IMG/VR virus record: IMGVR_UViG_3300027798_000070
Span: 1 to 46,390 of that record
Strand: one strand, 5' to 3'
Source of the DNA: a virus
Lineage: Duplodnaviria > Caudoviricetes
DNA: 46,390 nucleotides
Positions 1-46,207 of the stretch are shown here, piece after piece. Each line of letters starts with the position of its first letter. The stretch's first letter is position 1. Under the pieces are notes generated by a model. That model searched no databases and had not been told where the DNA came from. It saw only the letters and a list, made by a program, of their open reading frames with translations. The translations under genes and the position numbers were made by a program.

Positions 1-17
1 AAATAATCACGACCATT

Positions 18-143
18 CGCGGCGTTAGCGCTACCACGACTCGAATGGTCGTGATTATTTTATTACTTAAATCACTCTGATTTAGTTAAGCCGATTTACA
101 TACGGAAAGAGTCAGGGATTGGCACATTTGGATATCTAAATAT
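18..143. repeat. 126-bp terminal direct repeat (copy 1)
   Basis: Identical to 46265..46390; likely assembly circularisation overlap. Confidence 0.9.
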
Positions 144-442
144 CTGAATATAAAAACATGTTGACAAACAGGATTGCCACACCCTGTGACAAAATTGCAA
201 CTGATTCGGTATAGCCGTACTTCCCTGATTTTTGCGAACGCAATGCGCGCCCCCGCCCGGTCATGCCGGGTTCATAGGAATCAATATAGGCGATTCGCTG
301 TGCCTTGTCCATAGCAAAACGCAAAACTAGGTCAAAATTTAGAGTCTATATAAGTATGCGAATTTCCGTGTTTTCGGGGTTTACAGGGAAAGCGAATCAG
401 GTCATAAAGATCACAACGAAACGCAGACAAGGAAGCGACACA

Positions 443-535
443 ATGAAACGTACCGGCTTTATCCGCGACATACTGGCAACTGCAATGCTTTGTGCCTCTT
501 GCTATATGGTAATTGTTTCGCTTCTGGCAATGTAA
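443..535 (+). CDS. small hydrophobic early protein (30 aa)
   Basis: ATG at 443 after AAGGAAG; MKRTGFIRDILATAMLCASCYMVIVSLLAM. Confidence 0.55.
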   Translation: MKRTGFIRDILATAMLCASCYMVIVSLLAM

Positions 536-560
536 CACAATCAAAGAAAGGACTCACGCT

Positions 561-2105
561 ATGGAAAACCCGACAAACACGACTCCCGCTGTTTCTTTGT
601 TTAGTGAACACTTGCTTAAATGGGGAGTCTTGTTTGACCCCGTTACCTGTTTCTATGGCATAACAGAACGTCACGAGTCCCGTGCTATTCAACAGTATAT
701 CCGCCACGCATTGAATGATATGCGGAACAATGGGACTTTGCCTTGTTCAGACTTTTATCAATATTACTACCGCCTATTTAATTGCTTTCAACCGGCACAA
801 GCTAAAGACAACCCCATGAATCTGGCGATATACGAGTCCAAGGATAAGTTTGACAGGGATATTAGACTATCTGGCAAGCCGGGTAAGATCATCAAGCGGA
901 TTCTTCCTTTTGCAAGCGAGTCCTTTTGTGCTGCTTTTGCAGAATGGTTTAAGGAACAATTTGCAGAGATTGCTTATGCCGTGAAAGAGTCAACTGAGGC
1001 GGATTGCTTCGCATTGGCCTATAGCGGAACCCAGTCCAGAACCACCAATCCGAATCTGTCGTTTAACAATGATGTAAAGCTCTACGCTAAGAGTCTTTCC
1101 GGCTCATGCATGAGGCATGACAAATCAGAGTTTAGAAGCGGACTCCCAATTCATCCGGCAGAAGTCTATGCAAGCGGGGACTTTAAAATTGTCTATGCGG
1201 TAGACTCCAAGGGTTATATAGCGGCCCGCTGCGTTGTGAACATCAAACAGCGCGACTCCGTGGTCTATCGCCCCGGTCCTATATATACCGCCACGGACTC
1301 CGCTTTTAACGCTGTATCGGCTTACATGGTTGCACAGGGATATGACAAACAAGGGGTATGCGATACAAGCGGCTGGAATGGCGCTAGGATTAAGGCGGTA
1401 GAGTATCAAGGCGGATATATCGCCCCATTCATGGATTTATGCGGTCAAGGTGATTTACTGGACTCTGGTGAGTTTTTCAGACTGTCACGCAATGGCGATT
1501 ACACTTTCAGGGAAACCGGCGGCACAATAGAGTCGGAACAATTTTGTTGCACCTGTGGCGATTGTGGCGAAGGTATCAGGGAAGACGATTCGCAATACTA
1601 TATCGAAGACTCCGGGGAAACAGTGTGCGAGTCCTGCTATTGCGACTCTTACTTCACCTGCAACGGGAATGGGCAAGTTTACAGCAACAGCGACTCTGTT
1701 GAAGTCTATCGGCGGTCATATGGTCAAACCCGTTCTAGTACCTTTTCCCAAGATTATGTAGAGTCCGGTTACTGTGACATTGTCTATTGTGAAAACGAGG
1801 ACGAATATTGGCAAGGTGGAGATACTACCTATATCGAATGTGAATCAATCCATGTTCCTGATCATCTATTGGAATCGGATTATTTCAAGTCTGACCTAGA
1901 CTCGGAATGGTATCCGCTTTGTGACCGCGTAAAGATTGATTGTTTAGACGAGTCATGGACTCTTGACCAAGTAAAGGACTCTGATCAATTCGACATTGAA
2001 GACAATGAAGACGGATCAGTAACTGTTACCCTAAAATGTCACCTTGAAGTCAACGACTCTGGCATCATCGTTGACAATCAAATGACCCTGCCCCTAGCGG
2101 CTTAA
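561..2105 (+). CDS. early protein of unknown function with SCM...HP..VY motif and acidic Cys-rich C-terminus
   Basis: AAAGGA RBS before ATG 561; 514 aa; CxxC pairs (CGDC, CESC) suggest zinc ribbons. Confidence 0.85.
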   Translation: MENPTNTTPAVSLFSEHLLKWGVLFDPVTCFYGITERHESRAIQQYIRHALNDMRNNGTLPCSDFYQYYYRLFNCFQPAQAKDNPMNLAIYESKDKFDRDIRLSGKPGKIIKRILPFASESFCAAFAEWFKEQFAEIAYAVKESTEADCFALAYSGTQSRTTNPNLSFNNDVKLYAKSLSGSCMRHDKSEFRSGLPIHPAEVYASGDFKIVYAVDSKGYIAARCVVNIKQRDSVVYRPGPIYTATDSAFNAVSAYMVAQGYDKQGVCDTSGWNGARIKAVEYQGGYIAPFMDLCGQGDLLDSGEFFRLSRNGDYTFRETGGTIESEQFCCTCGDCGEGIREDDSQYYIEDSGETVCESCYCDSYFTCNGNGQVYSNSDSVEVYRRSYGQTRSSTFSQDYVESGYCDIVYCENEDEYWQGGDTTYIECESIHVPDHLLESDYFKSDLDSEWYPLCDRVKIDCLDESWTLDQVKDSDQFDIEDNEDGSVTVTLKCHLEVNDSGIIVDNQMTLPLAA

Positions 2106-2122
2106 TCTAAGGAAAACCCACT

Positions 2123-2320
2123 ATGCAACTCGCAATTCAGACTTCCCCCGATACACTCACAATTCAGGACAACTCCCGCCCATTGCTTGCCCCTAAGCAT
2201 ATTAAACACGCCACTGGCATTGTCTTTGGGCAATCCTATAGGCGCGTATATCAGGACAGACTCGGCCTATGGTGCAAGCTCAATGGCAAGCGCGTTCCTG
2301 TATACGTCCTGTCTGCCTGA
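2123..2320 (+). CDS. hypothetical early protein
   Basis: TAAGGA RBS; 65 aa; co-oriented with upstream gene. Confidence 0.7.
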   Translation: MQLAIQTSPDTLTIQDNSRPLLAPKHIKHATGIVFGQSYRRVYQDRLGLWCKLNGKRVPVYVLSA

Positions 2321-2323
2321 TCT

Positions 2324-2521
2324 ATGACTCACCTAATCAAGGACTCTGCAATGCCCCGCACGCATGGAAACGACAACGCTACATATCAACTCGCAAAGCA
2401 TGGGGCGTTTAGTATCCAGCCCTTTGGCCCATGCATGACGCTGGATCAAGCTCAGGGATACCAAGCGGATATGGCATTGGCGAATGTACATGTTTTGGTA
2501 GTACGCAAGGGCGCTATCTAA
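2324..2521 (+). CDS. hypothetical early protein
   Basis: 65-aa ORF directly downstream; start could be the ATG at 2351 after AAGGA. Confidence 0.6.
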   Translation: MTHLIKDSAMPRTHGNDNATYQLAKHGAFSIQPFGPCMTLDQAQGYQADMALANVHVLVVRKGAI

Positions 2522-2611
2522 GGGCCGTGCAAGGGCCGAGTCCTATAGGTCTGCCACCTCGGTATGCCTGAACATGGACTCGGCCCCTAGGCGGCTCTCC
2601 TGTGAAGTCTG

Positions 2612-2638
2612 AAGGGGGATTCTTATTGAGTCCCCTTT
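2612..2638 (+). terminator. hairpin, possible terminator of early block
   Basis: AAGGGGGATTC-ttatt-GAGTCCCCTTT 11-bp stem with 2 G-U pairs; poor U tract. Confidence 0.4.
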
Positions 2639-3123
2639 CCCTATTTGTGGCAAGCTCGAAACGAGTTAATCGTTTTTGACCATATGGTTAAAGTTTGACC
2701 ATGCGGTCAATTCTTTGCGTTATGTGATTGTATAACATTTGACGGATTGGCCCATGGGGTAGCCGAATCACCTCTCTGCCTTATCTTTTTGTATGTCAAC
2801 AAGTATCTTTAGATAGAATCATCAAATAGTTAGCGGATACCCCCTGTCAACCCCTTGACAAAACTTTTATGGGACCCTTGGGAATGTGAGGGGTGATTCG
2901 GTGGGGGTGGGGTTGCCCGGTATATCCCCAAGACAATAAAATCAAATAGGGTGCGACAAGTTGTCACAGTAGCGGAACTCTCAATCAGAGCTTCGCATAG
3001 TAAATATACAACAAACCAAAGAATAAGTATTCCTCTATAAGGACTTGCCCATTCTGGGTTACAACAAAAAGATTGATGCACACTCTCTGATAATAATAAA
3101 AAATAAAAATATCACTCTAGTGC

Positions 3124-3179
3124 CCCTTGACAGACCTGTTCACACATCCTATGTAACTATAGGGTTGTGTGCCCCCTGA
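3124..3179 (+). promoter_or_regulatory. sigma70-like promoter / repeated element copy 1
   Basis: TTGACA-N17-TATGTA; 3148..3179 identical to 43709..43740. Confidence 0.65.
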
Positions 3180-3401
3180 GTATATACTCTCTGAGTAAGC
3201 TTCCTGAGTAGTCTATATGATCAATTAACTATATACTGTATAGAGTATATAAGTGTATGTACTCTAGTATGAGTCCTCTAGTATGAGTCCTCTAGTGGCT
3301 TATTATATACTGTAATAAAGAAGTATATAAGTATGAGTCCTCTTGAATCCTCTATCTTAGTAACTATGTCCTTGTTGTAACCTATAAGGATAACTGAGAC
3401 T

Positions 3402-3908
3402 ATGGATGAACAATATAATGGATTCACTTTAGGTGATCTTAAGCTTACATTTAACTATGATCCCATTAGTGGTAGGTTCATCAATAAGAGAACAGGTAAT
3501 CTGGTCTATGACTTCAAGATGAACATCAGGAACCCTGAAGGTAAGTCGGTCACTCTTATGCTTCCACGAGTAGCTGTGTGGCTCGTAGAGGGCCATCCTG
3601 TTGCTGATGGGTATGTGGTTAAGTTCAAAGACACTAACCACTACAACCTAGCCTATGACAACCTTGTGGTAGTGCCTGCTGGGGAAGCCAATAAGCCTAC
3701 AGATAACTCTAAGTTTGTAGAGACTGCAACAAGAGGTGTATTTCACAATCAAGAAACTGGTGTGTTTGTTGTAAGAAGAGGTGCGAAGCAAGCAATTTAT
3801 AGGACTTTGGATTATAAAATTGCTATTGCTGTAAGAAAAGAGTGGGAACTGAATAAATCTGTTCATAGATGGGATAATAGCCTTCCTGACTGGGTTAACT
3901 TTAGCTAA
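3402..3908 (+). CDS. HNH/AP2-like protein with degenerate nuclease motif
   Basis: FNYDPISGRF N-terminus and KFKDTNHYNLAYDNL align by eye to phage HNH-AP2 proteins but lack the catalytic DH. Confidence 0.6.
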   Translation: MDEQYNGFTLGDLKLTFNYDPISGRFINKRTGNLVYDFKMNIRNPEGKSVTLMLPRVAVWLVEGHPVADGYVVKFKDTNHYNLAYDNLVVVPAGEANKPTDNSKFVETATRGVFHNQETGVFVVRRGAKQAIYRTLDYKIAIAVRKEWELNKSVHRWDNSLPDWVNFS

Positions 3909-4363: not shown

Positions 4364-4750
4364 ATGGCTGACAAACTTATCCATAATCTCAAGATTGCTA
4401 CCTATATCCGCAAAGCCATCAGGGCTGGTGTGTCGATGAAGGTGATCTTGGATAACATCCAATCGTATGACCATGCACCTTCCTCTATGGCTGGTATGTA
4501 TAGTGCATATCGAAATGACATTGCTCAAGCTAGGGCTGACATTCAAGAAGCTGTTGGTTCTGTTGTTGTACAGAAAGCCTTGGATGGCGACCTTCGTGCA
4601 GCAGAACTATTCTTGCGCTCAAAAGGTGGGTGGTCCCCAACTCAAACTATTGTTGAAGTTGACAATGAAGTTGAAACAGAGCAAACTTCTGCTATTGACG
4701 ACTTGATTGCCCTTCTTGGTGTTAAAGATAAAACCTTAGATAAAGAGTAA
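4364..4750 (+). CDS. terminase small subunit
   Basis: Position before terL; KALDGDLRAAELFLRSKGGW resembles small terminase helical motif; AGGTGA RBS. Confidence 0.75.
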   Translation: MADKLIHNLKIATYIRKAIRAGVSMKVILDNIQSYDHAPSSMAGMYSAYRNDIAQARADIQEAVGSVVVQKALDGDLRAAELFLRSKGGWSPTQTIVEVDNEVETEQTSAIDDLIALLGVKDKTLDKE

Positions 4751-4753
4751 TAA

Positions 4754-5383
4754 ATGAAGCTTTGTTGTTCTTGCAAGGTTCAAAAAGACCTTGAGCACTT
4801 CAGTAAGAACCCTACAACAAAAGATGGGCTGCATACAGCTTGTAAGGTTTGTAAACGAGCTTCAGACAAAACCTACCGAGAGAATAACAAAGAAAAAGTT
4901 GCAGCAGGTAAACAAAAGAGTTACTTGGCAAACAGAGAACACTATGACGCCAAGACAAAAGATTGGGTTAAAAACAACCCTGATCGGCGTAAAGAGATAC
5001 TTAATAACTCTTATTTGAATAACCAAGAAGCTATTCTTGAGAAACAAGCTAGTTATCGTAGTGAGAATAGAGAACTCTGTAATTCAAGGATCAAGAGTTG
5101 GTCCGAGCGTCACCCTGATAAACTTCGTGCAAAAGACGCTAGGAGAAGGGTCGCTACACTAAAAGCACAACCTATTTGGTTGAGTGAAGTTCATAAGCAA
5201 CAGATAGAAGATGTTTATACATTAGCTAGGGACTGTGAGTTGGTTAGTGGTCAGAAGTATCACGTAGACCATGTAGTGCCCCTTCAAGGTAAGACTGTTT
5301 GTGGTCTCCATGTTCCGTGGAACCTAGAAGTTCTGCCCGCTGATATAAATGTAAAAAAGAGTAATAAATTTAATGGCTGGTAA
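4754..5383 (+). CDS. HNH homing endonuclease (paralogue 1)
   Basis: N-terminal CxxC...CxxC; C-terminal YHVDHVVPLQGKTVCGLHVPWNL. Confidence 0.9.
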   Translation: MKLCCSCKVQKDLEHFSKNPTTKDGLHTACKVCKRASDKTYRENNKEKVAAGKQKSYLANREHYDAKTKDWVKNNPDRRKEILNNSYLNNQEAILEKQASYRSENRELCNSRIKSWSERHPDKLRAKDARRRVATLKAQPIWLSEVHKQQIEDVYTLARDCELVSGQKYHVDHVVPLQGKTVCGLHVPWNLEVLPADINVKKSNKFNGW

Positions 5384-6758
5384 AAACGGACTTTCACTAC
5401 ATGCTGATGACCTCCGTGCGATGGGTAAAGATGTAGCGGAAGTCCTACAGCAACTAGACCCCAAGAAGGCGGAAGAGCTTCGCTACAATTATCGCTTTTG
5501 GGCAAGACCTGAACAAGTACCTCCTGAAGAAGGTGAGTGGAACGTTTTTCTTGCTCTTGCTGGTCGTGGTTGGGGCAAGACATGGGCTGGTGCCCAATGG
5601 TGCCGTGAGCAAGTTAAACTTGGTAAACGCCGAGTTATGGCTGTAGCTGCAACAAACGCTGACTTGGAAAGAGTTCTTGTCAAGGGGGAAAGCGGATTTC
5701 TCTCTGTTTGTTGGGCTGGTGATAAAACTTACAAGGGTGTCCATATGGGATATCCTGAGTGGTCCCCAACTAAACGTACTTTAACTTGGGCCAATGGTGC
5801 CACAGTTACTTTTTATAGTTCAGAAGAACCTGACCGTCTGCGAGGTCCTCAAGGAGACGCCGCATGGCTGGATGAGCTTTGTGCTTGGAACAAAGACCGA
5901 GAAACATATGACATGCTGCAATTTTGCTTGAGACTTGGCAAGCATCCTCGTATATTTATCACCACTACACCTAAACCAACAAGACTTCTTCGGGATATCC
6001 TTAAAAACCCTAAAACTTTAACTGTTCGTGGTTCTACCTTCGACAATGCAGCAAATCTAGCCTCAACTTATCTGGAAGCAGTTAAAACACAGTATGAAGG
6101 CACTCGTCTCGGTCGTCAAGAGCTTTACGCAGAAGTTCTCGATGAAGCTGCTGGTGCCTTGTGGAACCGTTCTATCTTAGAAACCTGTGAAGTTGAGATA
6201 GACGACCCTGTTGCTTTCTCTGAAACTCTTGCTCGTGTCGTTGTTGCAGTCGACCCGGCTGTATCAGCTAATGCTGAGAGTGACATGACGGGCATTGTTG
6301 TTGCAGGTATGGACATCAATGGTGTCTGCTATGTCTTGGAAGATGCCACTGAGCGTCTATCTCCCGAAGGTTGGGCCACAAAAGCTGTAAACCTTTTCCA
6401 CAAGTATCACGCTGATCGTTTAGTATATGAACGAAACCAAGGCGGTGATCTTGTAAAATATACCCTCAAGACTGTTGATGAAACTATTCCTCTTAAAGCT
6501 GTACATGCTTCCCGTGGTAAGTTCGCTAGGGCTGAACCCGTAGCGGCACTATATGAGCGTGGTAAGGTTAAACACCTTCGTGGACTTGATGACCTTGAGA
6601 CGCAGATGACGACTTGGGAGCCACTTGGCTCCATTGGATCACCTGACCGTCTAGACGCTATGGTCTGGGCAATCACAGAGTTGGCCCTCAAGGGCATCGC
6701 TAAACCTGAACTTAACTTAGCCTATTCCGATGCGAAAGGCTTGCTAGCTAGGATATAA
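5373..6758 (+). CDS. terL: terminase large subunit
   Basis: Walker A AGRGWGKT, Walker B WLDE, TTTPKP coupling motif, nuclease VAVDPA and DRLDA. Confidence 0.95.
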   Translation: MAGKNGLSLHADDLRAMGKDVAEVLQQLDPKKAEELRYNYRFWARPEQVPPEEGEWNVFLALAGRGWGKTWAGAQWCREQVKLGKRRVMAVAATNADLERVLVKGESGFLSVCWAGDKTYKGVHMGYPEWSPTKRTLTWANGATVTFYSSEEPDRLRGPQGDAAWLDELCAWNKDRETYDMLQFCLRLGKHPRIFITTTPKPTRLLRDILKNPKTLTVRGSTFDNAANLASTYLEAVKTQYEGTRLGRQELYAEVLDEAAGALWNRSILETCEVEIDDPVAFSETLARVVVAVDPAVSANAESDMTGIVVAGMDINGVCYVLEDATERLSPEGWATKAVNLFHKYHADRLVYERNQGGDLVKYTLKTVDETIPLKAVHASRGKFARAEPVAALYERGKVKHLRGLDDLETQMTTWEPLGSIGSPDRLDAMVWAITELALKGIAKPELNLAYSDAKGLLARI

Positions 6759-9419: not shown

Positions 9420-10001
9420 ATGGAACTTAATCAAGAGATTACCACAAAGACTTGTAAGATTTGTCTTAAAGAGTTTTCTCTTGATCAGTTTCATAAAAAC
9501 ACTTCAGCTAAAGACGGTCATTGCTCAAGTTGTAAAGAATGTGCTTGCCACAAGAAGAGGCAAGACTATCAGCAAAACCCTGACAAGTTTATTGATAGAA
9601 ACAAAATCTGGAAAAGTGATAACCAAGATTGGGTTAAAGCTTACGAGCAAAGTAGAGGGCAGGCTTACTACTCTGCAAACAGAGAAAAGATTCTAGATAA
9701 GAATAAAGCTTATGCTAAAAACAACCCAGATAAGCATAGAAAATCTATGAGGGTTGCTGCTTCTAAGCGTCGTGGTGTTATTGGTAAATCTTGCCCAAAC
9801 TGGCTTACAGATGACCAACACGCGCAGATCAAATTTTTATACGATCTTGCACGAGACTGTGAGATTACTGCTGGTCAAAAATATCATGTAGATCACATTG
9901 TGCCATTGCAGGGTAAAAATGTTTGTGGTTTGCATGTTCCTTGGAATTTGCAGGTATTGCCTGCTGATATAAATATGTCAAAAGGCAATCGTTATGAATA
10001 A
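9420..10001 (+). CDS. HNH homing endonuclease (paralogue 2)
   Basis: CKIC/CKEC zinc finger; YHVDHIVPLQGKNVCGLHVPWNL. Confidence 0.9.
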   Translation: MELNQEITTKTCKICLKEFSLDQFHKNTSAKDGHCSSCKECACHKKRQDYQQNPDKFIDRNKIWKSDNQDWVKAYEQSRGQAYYSANREKILDKNKAYAKNNPDKHRKSMRVAASKRRGVIGKSCPNWLTDDQHAQIKFLYDLARDCEITAGQKYHVDHIVPLQGKNVCGLHVPWNLQVLPADINMSKGNRYE

Positions 10002-12128: not shown

Positions 12129-12968
12129 ATGCCTTATGCTTCAGTTGATGAACTACCCAAGGCTGTTCGTAGTAAACTCTCTGCTCACCAACAATCTGTG
12201 TTCCGTAATGTCTTTAACTCCATGATGGAACAAGAGGGCATGTCTGAGAGTAGAGCCTTTGCAGGTGCCTATTCCCAAGCTAAACAAGCTGTACAGAAGG
12301 CTATGCACCAAGGCAAAGAAGTCACTCTGGACAAGCCATTCCGTCTCCCTGAAGGTTCAGGTAAGAAGTTCGGAGTATACGTCAAGAGCGGTGATGGTGT
12401 CAAGAAAGTCACCTTCGGTGATCCTAACATGGAGATTCGCCGTGATGACCCTGATGCTCGTGCTAACTTCCGCTCTCGTCATTCTTGCGACACAGCCTCA
12501 GATAAGACCTCTGCTCGTTACTGGTCTTGTCGTATGTGGGAAAGTGGTACATCCGTCTCTGAGATGACTAAAGAGGTCCAGATTGAAGGTCAAATCGTTA
12601 AGCAGCTTGATGAAGAGCGTCTCGCATTTGGTTGGGCTTACGTTTCCACAGTGAAAGGTGAGGTTAGCCTTGACCACAGTGGAGAGTTTATTCGACCTGA
12701 ACTACTGGCTAAAGCAGCCACCAATTTTATGCTCTCCATGCGTACAGCCAAGAGGATGCACTCTGGCGAAAGCATTGGTGAAGTTATCCACTCCATGCCT
12801 CTGACAAATGATGTTGCAAAGGCTCTGGGTATTCAGTCGGACCGCGAAGGCTGGATCATTGCTATCAAAGTTCACGATGAACAGGTGTGGCAAGATGTTA
12901 AAAGCGGTAAACTAGCAGCTTTTAGTATAGGTGGTCGTGCTTTAAAAGAGTTTTCAAATGAAGTCTAA
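12129..12968 (+). CDS. ChaB-like + DUF6321-like + XkdF-like putative prohead protease
   Basis: MPYASVDELP..FRNVFNS; FGDPNM..NFRSRHSC..ARYWSC; RLAFGWA..DHSGE..GW..FSIGG. Confidence 0.75.
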   Translation: MPYASVDELPKAVRSKLSAHQQSVFRNVFNSMMEQEGMSESRAFAGAYSQAKQAVQKAMHQGKEVTLDKPFRLPEGSGKKFGVYVKSGDGVKKVTFGDPNMEIRRDDPDARANFRSRHSCDTASDKTSARYWSCRMWESGTSVSEMTKEVQIEGQIVKQLDEERLAFGWAYVSTVKGEVSLDHSGEFIRPELLAKAATNFMLSMRTAKRMHSGESIGEVIHSMPLTNDVAKALGIQSDREGWIIAIKVHDEQVWQDVKSGKLAAFSIGGRALKEFSNEV

Positions 12969-13443
12969 AGTTTGTAAAAAATGCTCTGTGGAAAAACTTT
13001 TAAGTGAGTTTTATACCAGTAAAGCAGGTAAACTGGGCGTCAGATCAAGTTGTAAACTTTGCGACTCACATTACTATAAACTGTACAAATCGACCAGAAA
13101 AGACCAAACGAGACTATATAATGAGGCTTGGTCTAAGGATAATTCAGATAAAAAGAAGTTGGCTACAAAGTCTTGGACTAAAGCTAATTATGATAAAGTT
13201 TTATCGTATAATGCCTCAAGAAGGTCGGAAAGAAAACTTGCAACCCTGTCAGGTTACTGCAAAGAGATAGAAGAAATCTATTGGTTAGCTCGGGATTTAA
13301 GAACAATTACGGGTGAGAGTTATCAAGTAGATCACATTGTTCCGCTTAAAGGCAAGAATGTTTGTGGTTTGCACGTACCTTGGAACCTTCAAATCCTACC
13401 TGCGGACTTAAATATGTCCAAAGGCAATAGATATGAGCATTGA
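12958..13443 (+). CDS. HNH homing endonuclease (paralogue 3)
   Basis: CKKC/CKLC; YQVDHIVPLKGKNVCGLHVPWNL. Confidence 0.9.
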   Translation: MKSKVCKKCSVEKLLSEFYTSKAGKLGVRSSCKLCDSHYYKLYKSTRKDQTRLYNEAWSKDNSDKKKLATKSWTKANYDKVLSYNASRRSERKLATLSGYCKEIEEIYWLARDLRTITGESYQVDHIVPLKGKNVCGLHVPWNLQILPADLNMSKGNRYEH

Positions 13444-14276: not shown

Positions 14277-14642
14277 ATGGCATTTACGGAAAATATGAGC
14301 ACTCGTACCTACGTTTCGGGTTCGGCTGTTGCCCAGTTCACCTTTGTCTCGCTTGCCGCTGACGGTCAGGTTGACAACACCTCTGCTAACGCCCGTACTG
14401 ATGGCGTGGTTCTGCAAGCTGCTGGCGCTGCTGGTCAAGCTGTCACGGTTGCTTATGATGGTCGTGTGACTGTCCAAGCTGGTGGCACCATCTCTCGTGG
14501 CGCTGCTGTTGCAGTTGGCACTTCGGGCAAAGCTAAGGCCGCTGCTTCGACCAACGTGATCGTGGGTTATGCTCTGGAAGCCGCTGTTGATGGTCAAATC
14601 ATCACCATCGAACTGTCCCGCGCTGATAACGCCGCAGCCTAA
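14277..14642 (+). CDS. capsid cement/decoration protein (DUF2190-like)
   Basis: Ala/Gly-rich 121 aa just before MCP; TAAGGAG RBS. Confidence 0.75.
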   Translation: MAFTENMSTRTYVSGSAVAQFTFVSLAADGQVDNTSANARTDGVVLQAAGAAGQAVTVAYDGRVTVQAGGTISRGAAVAVGTSGKAKAAASTNVIVGYALEAAVDGQIITIELSRADNAAA

Positions 14643-14679
14643 TCCGCAGCTAATCTAGTTTAATAAAGGAATACCACAA

Positions 14680-15687
14680 ATGGCTATGCTGACTCCTAGT
14701 GCCGTCCATATCGACGCACCGCTTACCAACCTGACGATTGCTTTCCTGCAAGATGCTAACGGCTTTATTGCTGACCGCGTGTTCCCGAAAGTCTCGGTTG
14801 CTAAGAAAACCGACAAGTACTACATCTACAACCGTGCTGACTTCAACCGCGTTGGTCAGGTCCAGCCTCGTGCTCCCCGTACCCAAGCTCCTCGCGTTGG
14901 TATGACCCTCTCGCAGGACACCTACTCGGCTGACGTGTTCTCGCTGGCTACCGACTTCGACTTCGATACGCTTGCCAACGAGGATGCTGCACTGGACATC
15001 CGCTCGGCTGGTGCTCAGATGCTGACCCACCAACTGCTGATCGACCGTGAAATCAAGTGGGCCACGTCCTACTTTGGTGCTTCGATCTGGGGTACTGACT
15101 GGGCTGGTGTTGCAGGTTCGCCCTCGACCAACCAAGTTCGTCAATGGTCTGACTACACGAACTCGACCCCGATCCAAGACGTTACGAACATCATGCGTAC
15201 CATGCAGCTTAAGTCGGGTGGCTTCAAGCCCAACGTCATGGTTGTTGGTAAAGAAGTCCGTGACGCTCTGGTTAACAACCCGTCGATCCTTGCCCGTCTG
15301 AATGGCGGCGCTACCGTGACGAATACCGCTCTGGTGACGGATGCCAAACTGGCTGAAATCTTCGGTGTGGAAGAGTTCCTCGTCATGGAGACCGTGAAGA
15401 ACACGGCTGCTGAAGGTCTGACCGAAGCTAACGCCTTCATCGGTGGCAAGTCGGCAGCGTTCTACTACCGTCCTCGCTCGGCTGGTCTGATGGTTCCCTC
15501 GGCTGGTTACACCTTCACTTGGGATGACCTTGAGAACGCTTCGGGTCACGGTATCACGATCAAGTCGTATCGTGGTGACTACCTCGCCATTGATGGTGTG
15601 GCAGAAGTTCTGGAAGCCAATCTGGCCTATGACCACAAAGTTGTGTCGTCGGACATGGGTGCTTTCATCGCTACTGTTGTAGCCTAA
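14680..15687 (+). CDS. major capsid protein
   Basis: 335 aa, HIDAPLTNL..FIADRVFP motif of capsid-E-like MCPs; strongly biased codons. Confidence 0.9.
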   Translation: MAMLTPSAVHIDAPLTNLTIAFLQDANGFIADRVFPKVSVAKKTDKYYIYNRADFNRVGQVQPRAPRTQAPRVGMTLSQDTYSADVFSLATDFDFDTLANEDAALDIRSAGAQMLTHQLLIDREIKWATSYFGASIWGTDWAGVAGSPSTNQVRQWSDYTNSTPIQDVTNIMRTMQLKSGGFKPNVMVVGKEVRDALVNNPSILARLNGGATVTNTALVTDAKLAEIFGVEEFLVMETVKNTAAEGLTEANAFIGGKSAAFYYRPRSAGLMVPSAGYTFTWDDLENASGHGITIKSYRGDYLAIDGVAEVLEANLAYDHKVVSSDMGAFIATVVA

Positions 15688-15704
15688 TAGAAGGATAGGG
15701 AAGA

Positions 15705-19671: not shown

Positions 19672-21397
19672 TATCGTCATCACAGTTGACAGTTCTCAAG
19701 TAAGGACTGGTAGCCAAGACCTCAAAGAGATGGCAAATCAAGCTCTTAACACTCTTCGGGCCACTAAACAACTATCTGGTCAAAGTAATTTAGATCGACA
19801 TTTTGCAAGTATTGATCGTCAGATTAGCCGCGTTAATACTAATATGTCTAACTATAGTAGGTTTACTTCTCAGGCTGCAAACAGTTCAGGTCAGTTTGGC
19901 GTTGTAACCCAGCAAGCTGGCTATCAGATTGGAGACTTTCTTGTTCAAATCCAATCTGGTACAAACTGGATGGTTGCCTTTGGTCAACAAGCCACACAGC
20001 TAGTTGGTGTATTGCCAATGATGACTGGTGCCTTTGGTCTTAGTTCAGGTGCTCTTATTGCCCTTAGTGCTGGCCTTGGTATTATCATCCCTCTTGTTAC
20101 AGCGCTTGGTGCTTTGTGGATGAGGTCTTCAGCTGAAGTAGAAGTTGCAGCAGATAAATATGTTGAGGCGCTAGATAAAATCTCCAAAAGGGCTGAGGAA
20201 ACTAGGATTAAAATCGAGGCACTTGAGCTTGGTGTTTCAGAGGAACAAGTTCTTCCATTAGAAAAGATAAACGTTCTTCAAGAAAAGCGTCTTAATCTTA
20301 TTCAAGAAATGCTTGACGAGTCTTATAGACTGCAAAAACTAGAAGCTGAAACTGGAGATGACTACTCTTATATCTTAGAAGGGTATCAAGAAAAAATCGC
20401 TCTTCTGAATGAAGATATCGCTGGTACACAAGAGCTTCTTAATCTTGATAAAGATAGGGCGCAACAACTTAAAGATATTGAAGGTTCTTCAGCGTTTGCC
20501 TCTAACTATATAACACTTATTGCAGAACGTGCTTTAGATGCGGCTGAAGCCTCTGGACAAATTGACTTTTCTAGTGCTGTAAGTAGTGCAGCAGCTTTGG
20601 CGGAACAACTTGGTGTTTCAGTTGAACTAGCTAGTAAGATGATGTCTATGGGGTTTGGTCAAAAGAAAGCTGTTGTGCTTGATCCACGTAGCCCTAATTA
20701 TGACCCAATTGCAGCTAGTATGGAAGAAATAAAAGGTGAATATGGTAGGGTCTCCCCTTTTGCACCATCTAGGCAAATAACCCCTCGTACTGGTGGTGGT
20801 TCAGGCGGCGGCTCTTCGTCTCGTCTTAAAGAAGAGATTAAACTTACTAAAGAACTAACCGAAGCTGAAAAAGAAAGACAGGGTATTCTAGATACAGTAA
20901 ACAGTTCTCTTGAAACTGGCTTCTTGGATATGGTCAAAGGCACTAAGACTGTAGGTGAAGCCTTCCGGAGTATGGCTGCTGCTATCATTGAGGAACTCTT
21001 CCGAGTGCTTGTTGTACAGAAGCTTGTTGGTGGCATTACCAGTGCTTTCACTGGTGGTGGTGGCTTTACTAATGCACAAGCTGGTAGACTGACTGGTGGT
21101 GGACGAGCCTCTGGTGGTTCTATGATGGCTGGTGGTTCTTACCTCGTTGGTGAGAATGGGCCTGAGATTGTTGTACCCCGTCACTCTGGCACTGTAGTCA
21201 ACGCTAACCAGACCTCTGGTGCTATGGCTGGCTCTGGTGGTATCACTGTCCAGAACAACATCACAGTGACAGGTAGCGATGCAGCTATGGTTCGTCAAGA
21301 GGTAGCCAAGATGATCCCTCAGATCACTAGTGCAACAAAGGCTGCTGTGATTGATGCTAAACAACGTGGTGGTCAGATGGGAGCCGCTTTCCGGTGA
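19664..21397 (+). CDS. tape measure protein
   Basis: 577 aa; QIGDFLVQ..QQATQL; C-terminal GRASGG..YLVGENGPE. Confidence 0.9.
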   Translation: MNDIVITVDSSQVRTGSQDLKEMANQALNTLRATKQLSGQSNLDRHFASIDRQISRVNTNMSNYSRFTSQAANSSGQFGVVTQQAGYQIGDFLVQIQSGTNWMVAFGQQATQLVGVLPMMTGAFGLSSGALIALSAGLGIIIPLVTALGALWMRSSAEVEVAADKYVEALDKISKRAEETRIKIEALELGVSEEQVLPLEKINVLQEKRLNLIQEMLDESYRLQKLEAETGDDYSYILEGYQEKIALLNEDIAGTQELLNLDKDRAQQLKDIEGSSAFASNYITLIAERALDAAEASGQIDFSSAVSSAAALAEQLGVSVELASKMMSMGFGQKKAVVLDPRSPNYDPIAASMEEIKGEYGRVSPFAPSRQITPRTGGGSGGGSSSRLKEEIKLTKELTEAEKERQGILDTVNSSLETGFLDMVKGTKTVGEAFRSMAAAIIEELFRVLVVQKLVGGITSAFTGGGGFTNAQAGRLTGGGRASGGSMMAGGSYLVGENGPEIVVPRHSGTVVNANQTSGAMAGSGGITVQNNITVTGSDAAMVRQEVAKMIPQITSATKAAVIDAKQRGGQMGAAFR

Positions 21398-21942
21398 GTC
21401 AAATGAAAACCTGCTCTAAATGCAACGAGGACAAATTAGAAGAATCTTTCTATAAAAAGAAAGGTTACAAGAATGGTTTGTCCTCGTGGTGTAAATCTTG
21501 TGAAAAACTCTATCATGCAAATAAGTATGAAGATAACAAAGAGCATATAACAAAACGTAATGCTGAGTGGGTTAAGAATAATCCAGAAAAGAAGCTTGCA
21601 ATCAACCGTGCCTCTCACGAAAGAAATCGTGAACTGCGTAATAAACAGAGTCTACAATCAAAGAAAAACAATAAAGCTCGGGTTAATGCTGGAAATGCTT
21701 TTAGGAGAGCTAGTATTAGAGAAGCTACACCACCTTGGTTGGATGCTCAACATAAGCAAGACATTAAATCTCTCTATGTCTTATCCCAAAAGTTTGAGGG
21801 TTTGTTTGGTCTTAAGTATCACGTAGATCACATAGTCCCACTTAACGGTGAGGGTGTTTGTGGTTTACATGTCCCTTGGAATTTACAGATACTTGAAGCC
21901 AAGGTAAATCTGAAGAAGTCTAATAAAACAACATTCCGCTGA
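21394..21942 (+). CDS. HNH homing endonuclease (paralogue 4)
   Basis: CSKC/CKSC; YHVDHIVPLNGEGVCGLHVPWNL; start may be ATG 21403. Confidence 0.9.
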   Translation: MSQMKTCSKCNEDKLEESFYKKKGYKNGLSSWCKSCEKLYHANKYEDNKEHITKRNAEWVKNNPEKKLAINRASHERNRELRNKQSLQSKKNNKARVNAGNAFRRASIREATPPWLDAQHKQDIKSLYVLSQKFEGLFGLKYHVDHIVPLNGEGVCGLHVPWNLQILEAKVNLKKSNKTTFR

Positions 21943-41693: not shown

Positions 41694-41950
41694 GGCTGGT
41701 CCCCCTTGCGGAGAAGGGCGAGTATGGCGGTCAGGAAGACTTCGACATCCTTGGCGATGGTTTTGTCGTCCCACTCGCCTTCGCTTTGCTCTGTGATCAG
41801 ATCGTGCAGAGTTTGGCGTAGTGTCACCGCGTCGATCTGCGCTTGCACTGTGATGGCGGGAAGGGCGTCGATGCGGCGTAGGCTATCACCAAGCCAACCT
41901 TCATCACTGAATATGTCCAGCACATCCTCACGGCGGATCAGGTCATTCAT
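41690..41950 (-). CDS. small GC-rich hypothetical protein
   Basis: MNDLIRREDVL..ALPA; RBS and ATGA coupling. Confidence 0.7.
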   Translation of the reverse strand: MNDLIRREDVLDIFSDEGWLGDSLRRIDALPAITVQAQIDAVTLRQTLHDLITEQSEGEWDDKTIAKDVEVFLTAILALLRKGDQP

Positions 41951-42240
41951 GTGTCAGCCTCTCCGGTGTTAAGGGCGTCGCGGGCGGAAAAAACTGCTGC
42001 GGTAAGTGATGGTGGCTCGGCTTGGGCAAGCTCAGCGTAATCGTACTCAATCAGCAGGCATTCCAGAGCAGCCTGCAGCCGCGCGTTGTCTGCCGTCAGG
42101 GCTTCAAGCTGCGCGAAGTCGTGCTTCGCACTCACGGCGGGAAGGGCAAGAATGGCGCTATAGGTACAAGGCCAATCGCTTTCCCACATATCCACAGCCT
42201 TCAGCACATCCCCGCGCCGTAGCATATCGTTGTCACTCAT
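41947..42240 (-). CDS. small GC-rich hypothetical protein
   Basis: MSDNDMLRRGDVL..ALPA, related to neighbour. Confidence 0.7.
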   Translation of the reverse strand: MSDNDMLRRGDVLKAVDMWESDWPCTYSAILALPAVSAKHDFAQLEALTADNARLQAALECLLIEYDYAELAQAEPPSLTAAVFSARDALNTGEADT

Positions 42241-42497
42241 GGCGTCTCTCCCTTCAACGCAGCGCGGGCAATATCTTGCATGTCCTGATCGCTAAACCAC
42301 GTTGTGACGTTCTGCTGTGTGGCCTCGTCGAAATCTTCATCTACACCGACAACGATTGCCTTCAGAGCCGCGCGCAGCCAGTCACGCTCTGCGGTCAGGG
42401 CTTTGATGCAGTCGGCGGCTTCGAGCATAGCGGCGGCGGGCCACTTCGGTGCCTGATCGGCTTGTGTCTCCAGCCACTTCACCAGATCATCAGTCAT
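42237..42497 (-). CDS. small GC-rich hypothetical protein
   Basis: MTDDLVKWL..EAAD.I.AL..IARAALKGETP. Confidence 0.7.
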   Translation of the reverse strand: MTDDLVKWLETQADQAPKWPAAAMLEAADCIKALTAERDWLRAALKAIVVGVDEDFDEATQQNVTTWFSDQDMQDIARAALKGETP

Positions 42498-42721
42498 GGC
42501 TCTCTCCCTTCGGTGGGCTGATCGGTGTAAGACCAGAAAGACCAGTCTGGGCCGGGTAAGCCCCCGTACTTCACAATGCGGACGCGCCTTACATGCTTCA
42601 ACCACACCCATCTCCCGTACCAGAGGCGGACAGGGTGCCATGCAAACCATTGATGGATCGGGCCTTCAGAACACCCAAACGCATAGATATTCGGCCAATC
42701 AAAGCGCGGTTTACGCGTCAT
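42494..42721 (-). CDS. small Trp-rich hypothetical protein
   Basis: WFAWHPVRL..GRWVWL..V motif. Confidence 0.65.
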   Translation of the reverse strand: MTRKPRFDWPNIYAFGCSEGPIHQWFAWHPVRLWYGRWVWLKHVRRVRIVKYGGLPGPDWSFWSYTDQPTEGREP

Positions 42722-43010
42722 GGCGTCTCTCACATTGCTCTAGTTGTATCAGAAGGCGCACCCTGTCGTCCTGCGCTATTGCCCAAAGCCTCCGACCGCA
42801 TAGAAGCGCCTCACGCAGCCGGTCACGCTCTGCCTCTACATCAGCTAGCTTGCCCTCGGCAGTCATCCAAGCGATTTCATATTCATCACGATCAGAGATC
42901 AGGACTTCGATGTCATCAGCCAAAGGTAAACAATCCACGCATTGCACACCCGCATCACCTTGAGACTGGCGTAGCACTAGCACAAAGCTCTTCAACAGAT
43001 TATCACTCAT
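42711..43010 (-). CDS. small coiled-coil hypothetical protein
   Basis: RBS GGGAGAG; EAERDRLREAL. Confidence 0.65.
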   Translation of the reverse strand: MSDNLLKSFVLVLRQSQGDAGVQCVDCLPLADDIEVLISDRDEYEIAWMTAEGKLADVEAERDRLREALLCGRRLWAIAQDDRVRLLIQLEQCERRHDA

Positions 43011-43573: not shown

Positions 43574-43685
43574 GTCTCCTAATCCCTCAGAGGTCCTATA
43601 TAGTGATTACAACAAGAAAAGCAAGTGTCATCTTCAAGAGCTAACTAATGTTACAGAGTTTGTAACAATTCGTGATCTGTATGAT

Positions 43686-43810
43686 CCCTTGACAACGAGC
43701 CTCTGGACCCTATGTAACTATAGGGTTGTGTGCCCCCTGAATATATACTCCCTGAGTGTTAGCTCTGATCTAGTGCTCTAGTGGCTTATTATATAATGTA
43801 TAAAGAAGTA
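43686..43810 (+). repeat. repeated promoter/origin-like element copy 2
   Basis: Shares 32-bp and 20-bp identical blocks with 3148..3179 and 3290..3309. Confidence 0.8.
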
Positions 43811-44630: not shown

Positions 44631-44660
44631 GTTGTATGCTGATTCGTATAGGTTTGTCAA
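44631..44660 (-). promoter_or_regulatory. sigma70-like promoter with GANTC in spacer
   Basis: TTGACA-AACCTATACGAATCAGCA-TACAAC. Confidence 0.55.
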
Positions 44661-45014: not shown

Positions 45015-45044
45015 GTGTATCGCATGATTCTAGCGAAAGGTCAA
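45015..45044 (-). promoter_or_regulatory. sigma70-like promoter with GANTC in spacer
   Basis: TTGACC-TTTCGCTAGAATCATGC-GATACA; weak -10. Confidence 0.45.
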
Positions 45045-46054
45045 TGCCTAAAGTTTCTCTGCCACTTCTCTTTCAGGTCAATGCAGTCATCAAGCAGACC
45101 ATCAGCAGAGTAACCATAGGACTGCAAGATTTGTGCAACCTGATCAGGATAACGCTTCATAACCGACTTGATGTCACCACAGTCAGGTTCATCATCAAGG
45201 TAGCTGTCATTCCAAGGATCATCATAGTAGTCATGGGTAGGCACCTTGCGGGCCTTATAGGGACCCTTGTCGTAACTGCTATACTCTACAGCACCAAGAG
45301 CACGCTTGAAGACAAGCTTAGACCAGTCTGCCACAACAAGAGATTGGATAAGGTACTCAAGGAACACTAAGTCTTGGCTCTCTTTTTTGGTGTGCTGATT
45401 GAAGTAACCAACAGAGATATTGGTGCACTCTGAGATGTAGTCTACATACTCATTGCTGTCCGTGTAGGCACCTGTAGTATCTTTGACCATAGACATATCA
45501 AGGATGTCAGCAAGGCTGTCAGCGAAGGCGTCAGAGCATGTACGAGCACCCATCTGGTGAGTGATGATACTTGTGTAACCCTTACGGTCAAAGCTGATAG
45601 CTGCGTCTACCTGACCAATCCAAGCAGGAAAATCTTTGACTAGAGCACTGGAACCTACGCAACCAATCTCTTCGCCAGCATGAACCACATAGACACCGGG
45701 TACACCCTCTTCGATCATGCGCAACATGATGTAGATACCTGTAGTGCAATCAGCACCAAGGCAATCATTACCTGTAGAGAAAGCATGGTCGTCCATGATC
45801 TGAACGATCTGTCTACCATCTGTGTGGTGAACTGTGTCGTGGTGAGACATAAAGGCTACACGAGGCTTAGTGCCAATAGTAAGAATGTAGTTGCCATGTG
45901 CGTCAGGCTTACCGAACACTGGCTCAAGGAACCTGCGACAGAACTTCTTCTGATAACGAGAACCATCTGGGCGCTTGTAGGCAAGCATATCGATGAAGTT
46001 AGGTGCAACGTAAACTTTAGTTGTAGTTTTTGTTGCGGTCATGTCGAAAGTCAT
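45041..46054 (-). CDS. M28/M42-like zinc peptidase
   Basis: SHHDTVH, LGAD, EEIG, DR, HT..E metal-ligand pattern. Confidence 0.8.
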   Translation of the reverse strand: MTFDMTATKTTTKVYVAPNFIDMLAYKRPDGSRYQKKFCRRFLEPVFGKPDAHGNYILTIGTKPRVAFMSHHDTVHHTDGRQIVQIMDDHAFSTGNDCLGADCTTGIYIMLRMIEEGVPGVYVVHAGEEIGCVGSSALVKDFPAWIGQVDAAISFDRKGYTSIITHQMGARTCSDAFADSLADILDMSMVKDTTGAYTDSNEYVDYISECTNISVGYFNQHTKKESQDLVFLEYLIQSLVVADWSKLVFKRALGAVEYSSYDKGPYKARKVPTHDYYDDPWNDSYLDDEPDCGDIKSVMKRYPDQVAQILQSYGYSADGLLDDCIDLKEKWQRNFRH

Positions 46055-46099: not shown

Positions 46100-46128
46100 T
46101 TTATAGATGGTATTCAGTGATTCGTCAA
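46100..46128 (-). promoter_or_regulatory. sigma70-like promoter with GANTC at the -35 edge
   Basis: TTGACG-AATCACTGAATACCATC-TATAAA, 17-bp spacer. Confidence 0.7.
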
Positions 46129-46134
46129 GCCCTA

Positions 46135-46207
46135 ATTTCCACTATGGGGGTCAACCCCTTTATTTCCATCGTGGGGGTCAGACGAACAATTTCCACCGTG
46201 GGGGTCA
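46135..46207. repeat. three 19-bp direct repeats, 27-bp period
   Basis: ATTTCCAYYRTGGGGGTCA at 46135, 46162, 46189. Confidence 0.9.

What the first reader, a model, noticed from the sequence alone, without database searches (positions are those of the whole stretch)
38..2899. GANTC-saturated island in the early block: candidate phage use of CcrM/GcrA methylation
Seen: about 47 GANTC sites in 1..2900 by hand count (33 GAGTC/GACTC, 14 GAATC/GATTC), versus roughly 11 expected at 1/256. I found only one site each in the portal gene (~1.3 kb) and in 14281..15700. Known: GANTC is the CcrM N6-adenine target in Alphaproteobacteria, and GcrA is a sigma70 cofactor that reads methylated GANTC. Inference: the phage avoids GANTC elsewhere but concentrates it here, perhaps in first-injected DNA, to load GcrA-RNAP, titrate GcrA/CcrM or a GANTC-reading defence protein, or sense cell-cycle state. 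I know of no description of such an island.
Basis: partly seen in the sequence, partly recalled or inferred. Interest (0 to 1): 0.92.

Follow-up and report, generated by a model that had tools for sequence, protein, structure and literature searches.

The report
Phage DNA segment packed with GANTC
A family of Roseobacter-type phages packs the bacterial methylation word GANTC into one sharply bounded 3-kb segment, even bending protein sequences to do so, while avoiding it everywhere else; this segment is likely the first DNA to enter the cell, likely pre-marked by a phage enzyme so that the host's cell-cycle reader GcrA would start phage transcription.

Summary
The island is real and under selection. 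It has 47 GANTC in 1-2900 against 11±3 in shuffles; the rest has 48 against 172. Inside it, Ser after Asp/Glu is always TCN (21/21); outside, AGY is preferred (34/43).

The phage is CRP-6-like. The island recurs beside terS/terL in 32 of 35 related viral loci, including cultured Roseobacter phage CRP-6, with different genes and sites. It is fenced by a repeat array and a conserved element. Five CbK-like phages, with an unrelated terminase, carry a similar block where phiCbK has its terminal repeat.

There are two layers. Non-coding sites fit the GcrA box YGATTCG (82/207); coding sites are plain GANTC (6/108). Twelve of 13 long relatives encode a small methyltransferase akin to a proven GANTC enzyme.

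Best reading (0.4): a pre-methylated entry segment that captures GcrA-RNA polymerase. Main rival: a 'self' mark against host defence. Termini, methylation and reader are not shown; contig depth argues against a long terminal repeat. My searches found no paper on it; this scan noted similar islands in other phages.

The parts
38..2899 (.). GANTC island: 47 sites, about one per 61 bp, both orientations, any middle base
   Evidence: conserved in relatives:
46136..46204 (+). Left boundary: three direct repeats TTTCCAYYRTGGGGG at 27-nt spacing (2-6 copies in relatives); adjacent to position 19 on the circle
   Evidence: in 30 loci 92 GANTC in the 1.5 kb left of the array against 623 right
46118..46126 (-). 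TGATTCG box overlapping a TTGAC -35-like box ahead of the leftward early arm (promoter inferred)
144..560 (+). Mostly non-coding head of the island with GcrA-type boxes at 202, 291 and 393; a 30-aa ORF at 443-535
561..2105 (+). 514-aa gene of unknown function with 29 GANTC (21 in frame as Asp/Glu-Ser); homologues in T7-like phages Pasto and Quill carry 1 and 0 sites
2123..2320 (+). 65-aa ORF, no family hit
2324..2521 (+). 65-aa ORF of the commonest island family (18 of 30 loci), function unknown
2764..2940 (.). Right boundary element: CGAATCA (2764), TGTCAA (2794), TTGACA (2855), TGGGACCC (2870), TGATTCG (2894), then a G-rich and an A-rich tract; back-to-back -35-like boxes each followed by a GcrA-type box; candidate packaging/terminus signal
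2941..3421 (.). AT-rich spacer with five further GANTC and a block (about 3148-3314) repeated near 43670-43810
4364..6758 (+). Putative terS (by position and conservation only), an endonuclease VII-like gene and terL
33575..34135 (-). Small NPPF-type adenine methyltransferase, candidate GANTC writer (specificity untested)
44640..44660 (-). TGATTCG box 14 nt behind a TTGACA in the early arm (about -20), outside the island
45041..46054 (-). M28-like peptidase, first gene of the GANTC-poor early arm; follows the 514-aa gene's homologue directly in phage Pasto
1..18 (.). Inverted copy of 43-60 at the contig start (likely assembly fold-back); 19-143 equals the last 125 bases

Best explanation
The island is a selected, sharply bounded 3-kb field of GANTC that likely lies at the DNA end entering the cell first, is likely methylated beforehand by the phage's own methyltransferase, and would capture the host's methyl-reader GcrA with sigma-70 RNA polymerase so that phage transcription starts at once. 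Shown: enrichment inside and avoidance outside; selection on the DNA word rather than the protein; turnover of individual sites and genes; two conserved fences; two site classes; a co-occurring methyltransferase gene. Inferred steps: (1) the NPPF enzyme writes m6A at GANTC on progeny DNA, because host CcrM is present only part of the cell cycle (about 0.6); (2) packaging starts on the terS side of the right-hand element, so the island is packaged last and ejected first, polarity recalled from lambda and T7 (about 0.65); (3) YGATTCG boxes at about -20 and near +1 of the -35-type promoters are read by GcrA (about 0.7); (4) the plain GANTC sites in the coding DNA add many weak sites that hold GcrA on the entering segment and drain it from the chromosome (about 0.4, the weakest step); (5) the same sites are mildly costly elsewhere, as in most phages of these hosts, hence their avoidance.
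For: Selection both ways: Ser after Asp/Glu is TCN in 21/21 cases in the island gene and AGY in 34/43 in 25 non-island genes; Asp/Glu-Ser 21 vs 7.2 expected inside, 43 vs 73.3 outside; GANTC 22 vs 65.2±6.3 in synonymous shuffles outside. Seven further island homologues (27-74% identical) carry 13-39 sites and share 2-16 of the window's 29 positions; Pasto and Quill homologues carry 1 and 0. Conservation: 32 of 35 viral terL loci (two are one contig) vs 0 of 63 cellular loci; 48 of 51 motif-selected loci; one such region in each of 12 further long contigs. GcrA context: in 17 dereplicated islands TGATTCG 56 vs 19.0 and CGATTCG 32 vs 14.9 expected; non-coding 82/207 vs coding 6/108, P 8e-12; modest peaks 14-15 and 30-41 nt behind TTGAC, matching the -20 and +2..+30 zones in PMC4647560 (passages). 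B. subvibrioides GcrA has >400 ChIP peaks in coding regions and no extended motif (PMC7987155 passages). Methyltransferase in 12 of 13 long island contigs; profile match to the proven GANTC enzyme PhiLM21_p027, probability 93.6%, 84 columns; 38 of its 40 best records are phages named for Alphaproteobacteria. No phage GcrA in 5 of 5 island genomes searched. Second group: blocks in RcXuper (O/E 2.45 vs 0.64), DSS3P8 (2.53 vs 0.54), RpAliso (1.73), MD18 (1.74) and XM05, all downstream of terL, where phiCbK and Colossus have mapped terminal repeats.
Against: Coding-region sites are not enriched for the Caulobacter GcrA context (6/108; YGAKTCK 16%). In Caulobacter most GANTC sites carry little or no GcrA, and low-ranked sites bind like unmethylated DNA. 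Termini are unmapped: contig depth in the probable source run is flat (14.0 and 14.6 in the island, 14.6 at terL), against a long repeat, though the tool calls depth a poor measure; contig starts are in excess at both fences, which strain mixing also explains. The methyltransferase match covers only the N-terminal half; pairwise BLAST is weak (E 0.036); the family also occurs without an island (Atu_ph08, RW, RHph_Y60) and in RcKickapoo, which has only 7 GANTC in 94 kb; one 90%-complete island contig (G007) lacks it. phiCbK's mapped repeat is not above chance (O/E 0.78; rest 0.42). Three loci have weak or no island (L073, L087, L089). Mascolo et al. found no positional asymmetry of predicted GcrA sites in 499 phage genomes (PMC9437464 passages). 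Background sites also favour TGATTCG (16 vs 7.1). The window's own host is unknown.
Confidence: 0.4

Rival explanations
1. Self-passport against an entry-surveying defence. A host system would treat unmethylated GANTC as foreign and be calmed or soaked up by methylated GANTC. The phage then strips sites from most of its genome but loads the leading segment with pre-methylated ones until its anti-defence genes act. The promoter boxes could still be GcrA sites.
For: It explains why plain GANTC suffices in coding DNA, and the extreme avoidance in other phages of these hosts: RDJL Phi1 1 site in 62.7 kb, Quill 2, Pasto 8, RcKickapoo 7. GTAC, GATC and CTNAG are lower in islands than outside (ratios 0.51, 0.60, 0.57). 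PMC9516812 raises GANTC as a defence mark from pelagiphage depletion (passages). Island cargo is variable, like accessory early genes.
Against: No CcrM-mark-reading defence turned up in my search. A plain restriction enzyme would gain the phage nothing from extra sites. CCGG, CGCG and GCGC are more frequent in the island, not less. No island gene matched a known anti-defence family (29 proteins scanned).
Confidence: 0.25
2. Methylation-gated packaging, as at the P1 pac site but enlarged: terminase would start or finish only on methylated GANTC-rich DNA between the repeat array and the right-hand element.
For: The island abuts terS/terL, and its right fence is the most conserved non-coding element, with a TGATTCG box. 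P1 pac has seven Dam sites in 161 bp and methylation promotes cleavage (PMC10028697 passages). Unitig depth steps from 14.6 to 19.5 at 2883 and then decays.
Against: 3 kb (12-20 kb in CbK-like phages) is far larger than P1 pac. Sites are not phased or positionally conserved. The two groups' terminases show no significant similarity (E 0.23). The depth step coincides with a second strain merging there.
Confidence: 0.12
3. Counter-silencing: methyl marks or bound methylase would keep MucR/H-NS-type silencers off the AT-rich incoming DNA.
For: MucR and CcrM compete at GANTC sites (10.1101/091785 passages). Even cover of coding and non-coding DNA (11.6 vs 12.2 per kb) suits blocking a spreading protein.
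Against: The equally AT-rich early arm avoids GANTC. That paper shows MucR blocking CcrM; I saw no passage that m6A blocks MucR.
Confidence: 0.08
4. Replication origin with methylation-timed sequestration: the repeat array would be the origin and the field a SeqA-like sequestration zone.
For: GANTC rises around chromosomal origins in four alphaproteobacterial orders (PMC9836097 passages). The cumulative GC-skew minimum is at 45.8 kb, next to the array.
Against: The field lies on one side of the array only (92 vs 623). The skew switch also follows gene direction. The phage has its own T7-like primase/helicase and polymerase.
Confidence: 0.08
5. A sponge for host CcrM, or a by-product (composition, protein need, tRNA loops, foreign DNA).
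For: The island has its own composition (CG O/E about 1.0-1.1 vs 0.5-0.8).
Against: It survives dinucleotide and codon shuffles. Homologous proteins elsewhere lack the sites. There is no tRNA in the window. A sponge would not need one location, nor avoidance elsewhere.
Confidence: 0.07

Closest known systems
CtrA-box clusters in terminal repeats and gap regions of alphaproteobacterial phages (Mascolo et al. 2022, PMC9437464; passages)
   Same: A phage concentrates sites for a host cell-cycle regulator in one terminal or gap region; arose in unrelated phage groups.
   Different: Here the word is the CcrM/GcrA mark GANTC, half of the sites lie inside genes and alter codons and residues, and a phage methyltransferase accompanies it. 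That study reported no asymmetry for GcrA sites; I did not see its genome list or Figure S3.
GcrA/CcrM-dependent sigma-70 promoters of Caulobacter (Haakonsen et al. 2015, PMC4647560; passages)
   Same: TGATTCG/YGAKTCK context; sites near -20 and just downstream of the start.
   Different: Those use one or two sites per promoter; here about 50 sites cover 3 kb and the coding-region sites lack the context.
Phage GANTC methyltransferases with NPPF/Y/W motif (PhiLM21_p027 and kin; Decewicz et al. 2017, PMC5537653; passages)
   Same: Small solitary enzyme, NPPF motif, placed in the replication arm, alphaproteobacterial phages; profile match 93.6%.
   Different: Only the N-terminal half aligns; specificity untested; the passages read describe no target-site island.
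Phage P1 pac site (via PMC10028697; passages)
   Same: Host methylation words clustered beside the terminase genes of a phage.
   Different: 161 bp with seven fixed hexamers inside pacA, against 3 kb with about 50 mobile sites outside terS.
Roseobacter phage CRP-6 group (Zhang et al. 2019, PMC6918029; passages)
   Same: Same genome plan; terL 62%, capsid 59%, polymerase 47%, methyltransferase 46% identical.
   Different: The passages read mention no GANTC feature, termini or this methyltransferase; island genes differ.

Membership tests
CRP-6-type phage group | Best cultured match of terL, capsid and DNA polymerase, with shared gene order | tested here: met
   CRP-6 is the top hit; gene order
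GcrA-activated promoter | GANTC in YGAKTCK context | tested here: met
   Non-coding island sites: YGATTCG 82/207, YGAKTCK 43%
GcrA-activated promoter | Site near -20 or +2..+30 of a sigma-70 start | tested here: inconclusive
   Small peaks 14-15 and 30-41 nt behind TTGAC; starts unmapped; -10 boxes non-canonical
GcrA-activated promoter | m6A present and GcrA-dependent transcription | not testable with these tools
   No methylation, ChIP or infection RNA data
GcrA high-affinity array (coding-region sites) | YGAKTCK context inside genes | tested here: not met
   YGATTCG 6/108, YGAKTCK 16%
Phage GANTC methyltransferases (PhiLM21_p027 type) | Small enzyme with SAM-binding and NPPF/Y/W motifs, near replication genes | tested here: met
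Phage GANTC methyltransferases (PhiLM21_p027 type) | Methylates GANTC (HinfI protection) | not testable with these tools
   RcKickapoo carries a homologue with 7 GANTC in 94 kb, so specificity may vary
Long direct terminal repeat (phiCbK/T5 type) | Twofold read depth over the segment | tested here: inconclusive
   Contig depth flat in one run, against a long repeat; contigs only, fraction unknown
P1-type methylation-gated pac site | Short cluster of fixed repeats in the small terminase gene | tested here: not met
   Island lies 1.4 kb or more upstream of terS, 3 kb long, sites turn over
LPEG phages (CtrA-box clusters) | Clustered TTAA-N7-TTAA boxes | not tested
   CtrA boxes were not scanned; TTAA O/E is 0.62 in islands and 0.65 outside

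The most novel reading that the evidence does not exclude
Unrelated phages of Alphaproteobacteria have converged on an epigenetic entry pass: a kilobase-scale, pre-methylated GANTC field on the leading DNA, whose coding-region sites are read not by GcrA but by an undiscovered host protein (a defence sensor or SeqA-like factor) that uses the CcrM mark to tell self from non-self. That same reader would explain why most phages of these hosts purge GANTC.
Probability: 0.25. Interest if true: 0.95.

Novelty: new variant of a known kind. Interest (0 to 1): 0.8.

Why it matters
It points to phages exploiting the alphaproteobacterial cell-cycle methylation mark as a DNA-level signal strong enough to rewrite protein sequence. 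It gives a candidate purpose for the GANTC methyltransferases long noted in these phages, and a handle on the open question of why their genomes avoid GANTC. The pattern holds in cultured phages with workable hosts (RcXuper on Rhodobacter capsulatus, DSS3P8 on Ruegeria pomeroyi), so reader, timing and benefit can be tested directly. If the coding-region field has a reader other than GcrA, it would reveal a new host protein.

Tried and rejected
By-product of composition or codons: rejected. Protein need for Asp/Glu-Ser: rejected, since Pasto and Quill homologues lack it. GAGTC-specific signal: rejected, since the middle base varies by phage from 36 S:17 W to 3 S:28 W. tRNA loops: none in the window. 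Helical phasing: no 10-11 bp period, only the codon period 3. GATC counterpart: none in 3 gammaproteobacterial phages sharing polymerase or terminase (CW02, Faunus, phiA005; best log10 P -3.5); GANTC ranked 156-408 of 408 motifs in 13 control phages (two were sampled in part). Phage-encoded GcrA: 0 of 5. Long terminal repeat: depth flat. Terminus from contig ends: 15 of 109 starts within 250 nt left of the right element (rate ratio 2.4, P 0.005, contigs not independent) and 8 of 41 within 201 nt left of the repeat array; both are also explained by strain mixing. In the motif-selected set alone the excess was slight (10 of 90 loci had only 300-nt flanks). An apparent excess at the island's left edge is partly circular and was dropped. 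No RNA holder listed. Island cargo: no named family for the 514-aa or 65-aa proteins; a resemblance of two small families to Ocr was by eye and had no hit. No solved structure matched the methyltransferase profile. No terminal-repeat annotation in the first bases of the Tank, RcXuper, RpAliso or XM05 records; no paper naming RcXuper or RpAliso appeared among the 8 listed.
Full report
OBSERVATION. The count is exact: 47 GANTC in 1..2900 (33 GASTC, 14 GAWTC), 100 in the window, one each in the portal gene and in 14281-15700. Dinucleotide shuffles give 11.0±3.2 for the island (max 22 of 1000) and 172±13 for the rest, which holds 48. GANTC is the top gapped 4-mer by 25 orders of magnitude and ranks first of 408 motifs in a 2.5-kb island scan. 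The contig closes on itself: 19-143 repeats the last 125 bases and 1-18 is an inverted copy of 43-60; a contig of the probable source run reads across that junction.

THE PHAGE. It has two arms. Terminase, portal, capsid, tail and lysis genes run rightwards from 4.3 kb; a T7-like primase/helicase, polymerase and nucleotide genes run leftwards from 46 kb. The top cultured match for terL, capsid and polymerase is Roseobacter phage CRP-6 (62, 59, 47%), which infects an RCA strain (PMC6918029 passages). The window's own host is unknown. In 61 sampled genomes of the family of a Rhodobacteraceae MAG, 60 have GcrA and 57 a RAMA domain, which I recall as CcrM's C-terminal domain.

SELECTION ON THE WORD. 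In the 514-aa island gene, all 21 Ser after Asp/Glu use TCN, and Asp/Glu-Ser occurs 21 times against 7.2 expected. In 25 non-island genes (27.5 kb) such Ser use AGY 34 of 43 times although other Ser use TCN 413 of 606 times; the dipeptide is rare (43 vs 73.3) and GANTC is 22 against 65.2±6.3 in synonymous shuffles. Seven further island homologues carry 13-39 sites, sharing 2-9 of the window's 29 positions at 27-41% identity and 16 at 74%. The homologues in T7-like Pasto and Quill carry 1 and 0. So density is kept while sites move, and the protein does not need them.

CONSERVATION. CRP-6 has 38 of its 69 sites in 2.45 kb at the same place, over different genes. Of 35 viral terL loci with at least 3.5 kb upstream (two are one contig), 32 have 12 or more sites in some 1.5 kb; L073, L087 and L089 do not. 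None of 63 cellular loci with more distant terL does. Twelve further contigs of 42-53 kb each show one such region, some cut by the contig ends; GANTC ranks 1-25 of 408 in them. Cargo is variable, mostly small unknown genes.

FENCES. On the right lies a conserved element: an inverted CGAWTCR box, TGTCAA, TTGACA, TGGGACCC, GGGTGATTCG, then G-rich and A-rich tracts. A search with this motif alone gave 90 loci, overlapping the terL set; 75 have terL downstream. Mean density is 8-15 per kb in the 2.75 kb to its left and about 1-2 per kb beyond 250 nt to its right; 48 of 51 loci with at least 1.5 kb left have 5 or more per kb. On the left lie 2-6 repeats of TTTCC-N5/6-GGGG, found in 41 of 67 loci (many of the others start inside the island). 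In the 30 loci with full flanks there are 92 sites left and 623 right. The early genes just left of the array avoid GANTC, so the field marks a DNA segment, not a gene class. The island also has its own composition (CG and GCGC up; GTAC, GATC, CTNAG down).

TWO LAYERS. In 17 dereplicated islands TGATTCG occurs 56 times (19.0 expected) and CGATTCG 32 (14.9), mostly near both island ends. TGATTCG is the GcrA consensus of Haakonsen et al. (PMC4647560 passages). Density is equal in called coding and non-coding DNA (11.6 and 12.2 per kb), but YGATTCG makes up 82 of 207 non-coding and 6 of 108 coding GAWTC sites (P 8e-12; ORF calling was rough). Boxes show small peaks 14-15 and 30-41 nt behind TTGAC. 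Promoter sites thus look like GcrA boxes, whereas coding sites are plain GANTC with no helical phasing. In Caulobacter such low-ranked sites bind GcrA no better than unmethylated DNA; in Brevundimonas GcrA shows no extended motif and over 400 coding-region peaks (PMC7987155 passages).

A CANDIDATE WRITER. 33575-34135 encodes a small methyltransferase with an NPPF motif. Of its 40 best phage records, 38 are named for Alphaproteobacteria. A 14-sequence profile matches the proven GANTC enzyme PhiLM21_p027 over the N-terminal 84 columns (93.6%, E 2e-7); plain BLAST is weak. Decewicz et al. describe small NPPF/Y/W enzymes near replication genes as GANTC-specific where tested (PMC5537653 passages). 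It is present in 12 of 13 long island contigs, and absent from RDJL Phi1, Pasto, phiCbK and 5 other controls. Against a simple link: Atu_ph08, RW and RHph_Y60 have it without an island, and RcKickapoo has it with 7 GANTC in 94 kb.

A SECOND PHAGE GROUP. The CbK-like phages DSS3P8, RcXuper, RpAliso, MD18 and XM05 hold one 12-20 kb block rich in GANTC and YGATTCG: RcXuper O/E 2.45 against 0.64, DSS3P8 2.53 against 0.54; RpAliso and MD18 were sampled in part. The two layers recur, including genes with 14-16 sites in 760 bp, and one cargo family is shared with the CRP-6 group (45% identical). All five blocks begin within about 1-5 kb downstream of terL, where phiCbK and Colossus have mapped 10-17 kb terminal repeats (PMC3556154 passages). 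In those two the repeat is only about twofold richer than the rest (0.78 vs 0.42; 1.37 vs 0.67 in 100 kb sampled), and phiCbK encodes its own GcrA. The two groups' terminases show no significant similarity. Thirteen control phages show no GANTC island, and three gammaproteobacterial ones no GATC island.

WHERE ARE THE ENDS? Not determined. Only assembled contigs were available. Depth in the probable source run is flat over the island (14.0, 14.6) and terL (14.6), against a 3-kb terminal repeat; a step to 19.5 at 2883 coincides with a second strain merging. Contig starts are in excess at both fences, which strain mixing can also cause. A short repeat or pac-type start at the right element, upstream of terS, would make the island last packaged and first ejected (polarity recalled from lambda and T7; part of the element resembles lambda cosQ, also recalled). 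I put entry-end location at about 0.65.

MECHANISM. Most likely (0.4): the phage methylates its progeny, the marked segment enters first, GcrA-sigma-70 polymerase fires its boxed promoters whatever the host's methylation state, and the plain sites hold GcrA there by many weak contacts. Rivals: a self-mark against an unknown defence (0.25), methylation-gated packaging (0.12), counter-silencing (0.08), origin sequestration (0.08), CcrM sponge or by-product (0.07).

NOVELTY. Searches of the open library listed no paper describing such an island; subscription papers are largely missing. Nearest is Mascolo et al. 2022, who found CtrA-box clusters in terminal repeats but no asymmetry of GcrA sites in 499 genomes (PMC9437464 passages). 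I did not see their genome list or Figure S3, which may bear on this. Seong et al. report only GANTC depletion in pelagiphages (PMC9516812 passages). Also seen as passages: PMC9836097, PMC5786225, PMC6536676, PMC10028697, 10.1101/091785. This scan's notes record similar GANTC-dense early regions in three other uncultured phages; these are unchecked and not independent support. Added here: a whole family, cultured members, the fences, the two layers and the candidate writer. Verdict: real, selected and widespread; a new variant of host-regulator hijacking with an open reader. Interest 0.8.

Noticed in passing
window 46136-46204; relatives such as L001:44769-44870: Array of 2-6 repeats TTTCC-N5/6-GGGG, conserved from freshwater to marine members; candidate terminase-binding, origin or injection-stop signal.
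   Followed up: partly
window 2764-2940: Highly conserved non-coding element with back-to-back -35-like boxes; the leftward one would transcribe antisense into the island, as an inward-pointing entry promoter might.
   Followed up: partly
window 3148-3314 and about 43670-43810: An AT-rich block with short palindromes occurs twice in the same orientation; origin-like or promoter-like.
   Followed up: no
window 4754-5383, 9420-10001, 12958-13443, 21394-21942: Four endonuclease VII-like genes inserted among the structural genes, plus an HNH gene at 3402-3908 present in 20 of 30 relatives.
   Followed up: no
window 561-2105 and 45041-46054: The 514-aa gene and the M28-like peptidase diverge here but are adjacent in T7-like phage Pasto (L002:1969-4557), right after ardA; a likely functional pair.
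   Followed up: partly
L441-L445 (RcKickapoo), L317-L320 (RDJL Phi1), L003 (Quill): Near-total GANTC purge: 7 sites in 94 kb, 1 in 63 kb, 2 in 45 kb; RcKickapoo still carries the methyltransferase family.
   Followed up: partly
L449-L452 (RHph_Y60): No island, but GANTC is not depleted (O/E 0.92) and YGATTCG is frequent along the whole genome.
   Followed up: no
L332:10251-12750 (phiCbK about 50-53 kb): Local GANTC peak (21 in 2.5 kb); cause not checked, tRNA genes are a possibility.
   Followed up: no
window 41700-43000: GC-rich (57%) patch of small genes unlike the rest of the genome; likely a recent acquisition.
   Followed up: no
window 12129-12968: PHROGs labels this a DNA methyltransferase, but Pfam shows ChaB plus an XkdF-type protease; the label is probably wrong.
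   Followed up: yes
L100 and L101: Members of this phage group sit as short contigs in MAGs named Flavobacteriaceae and Mycobacterium; probably mis-binned.
   Followed up: no
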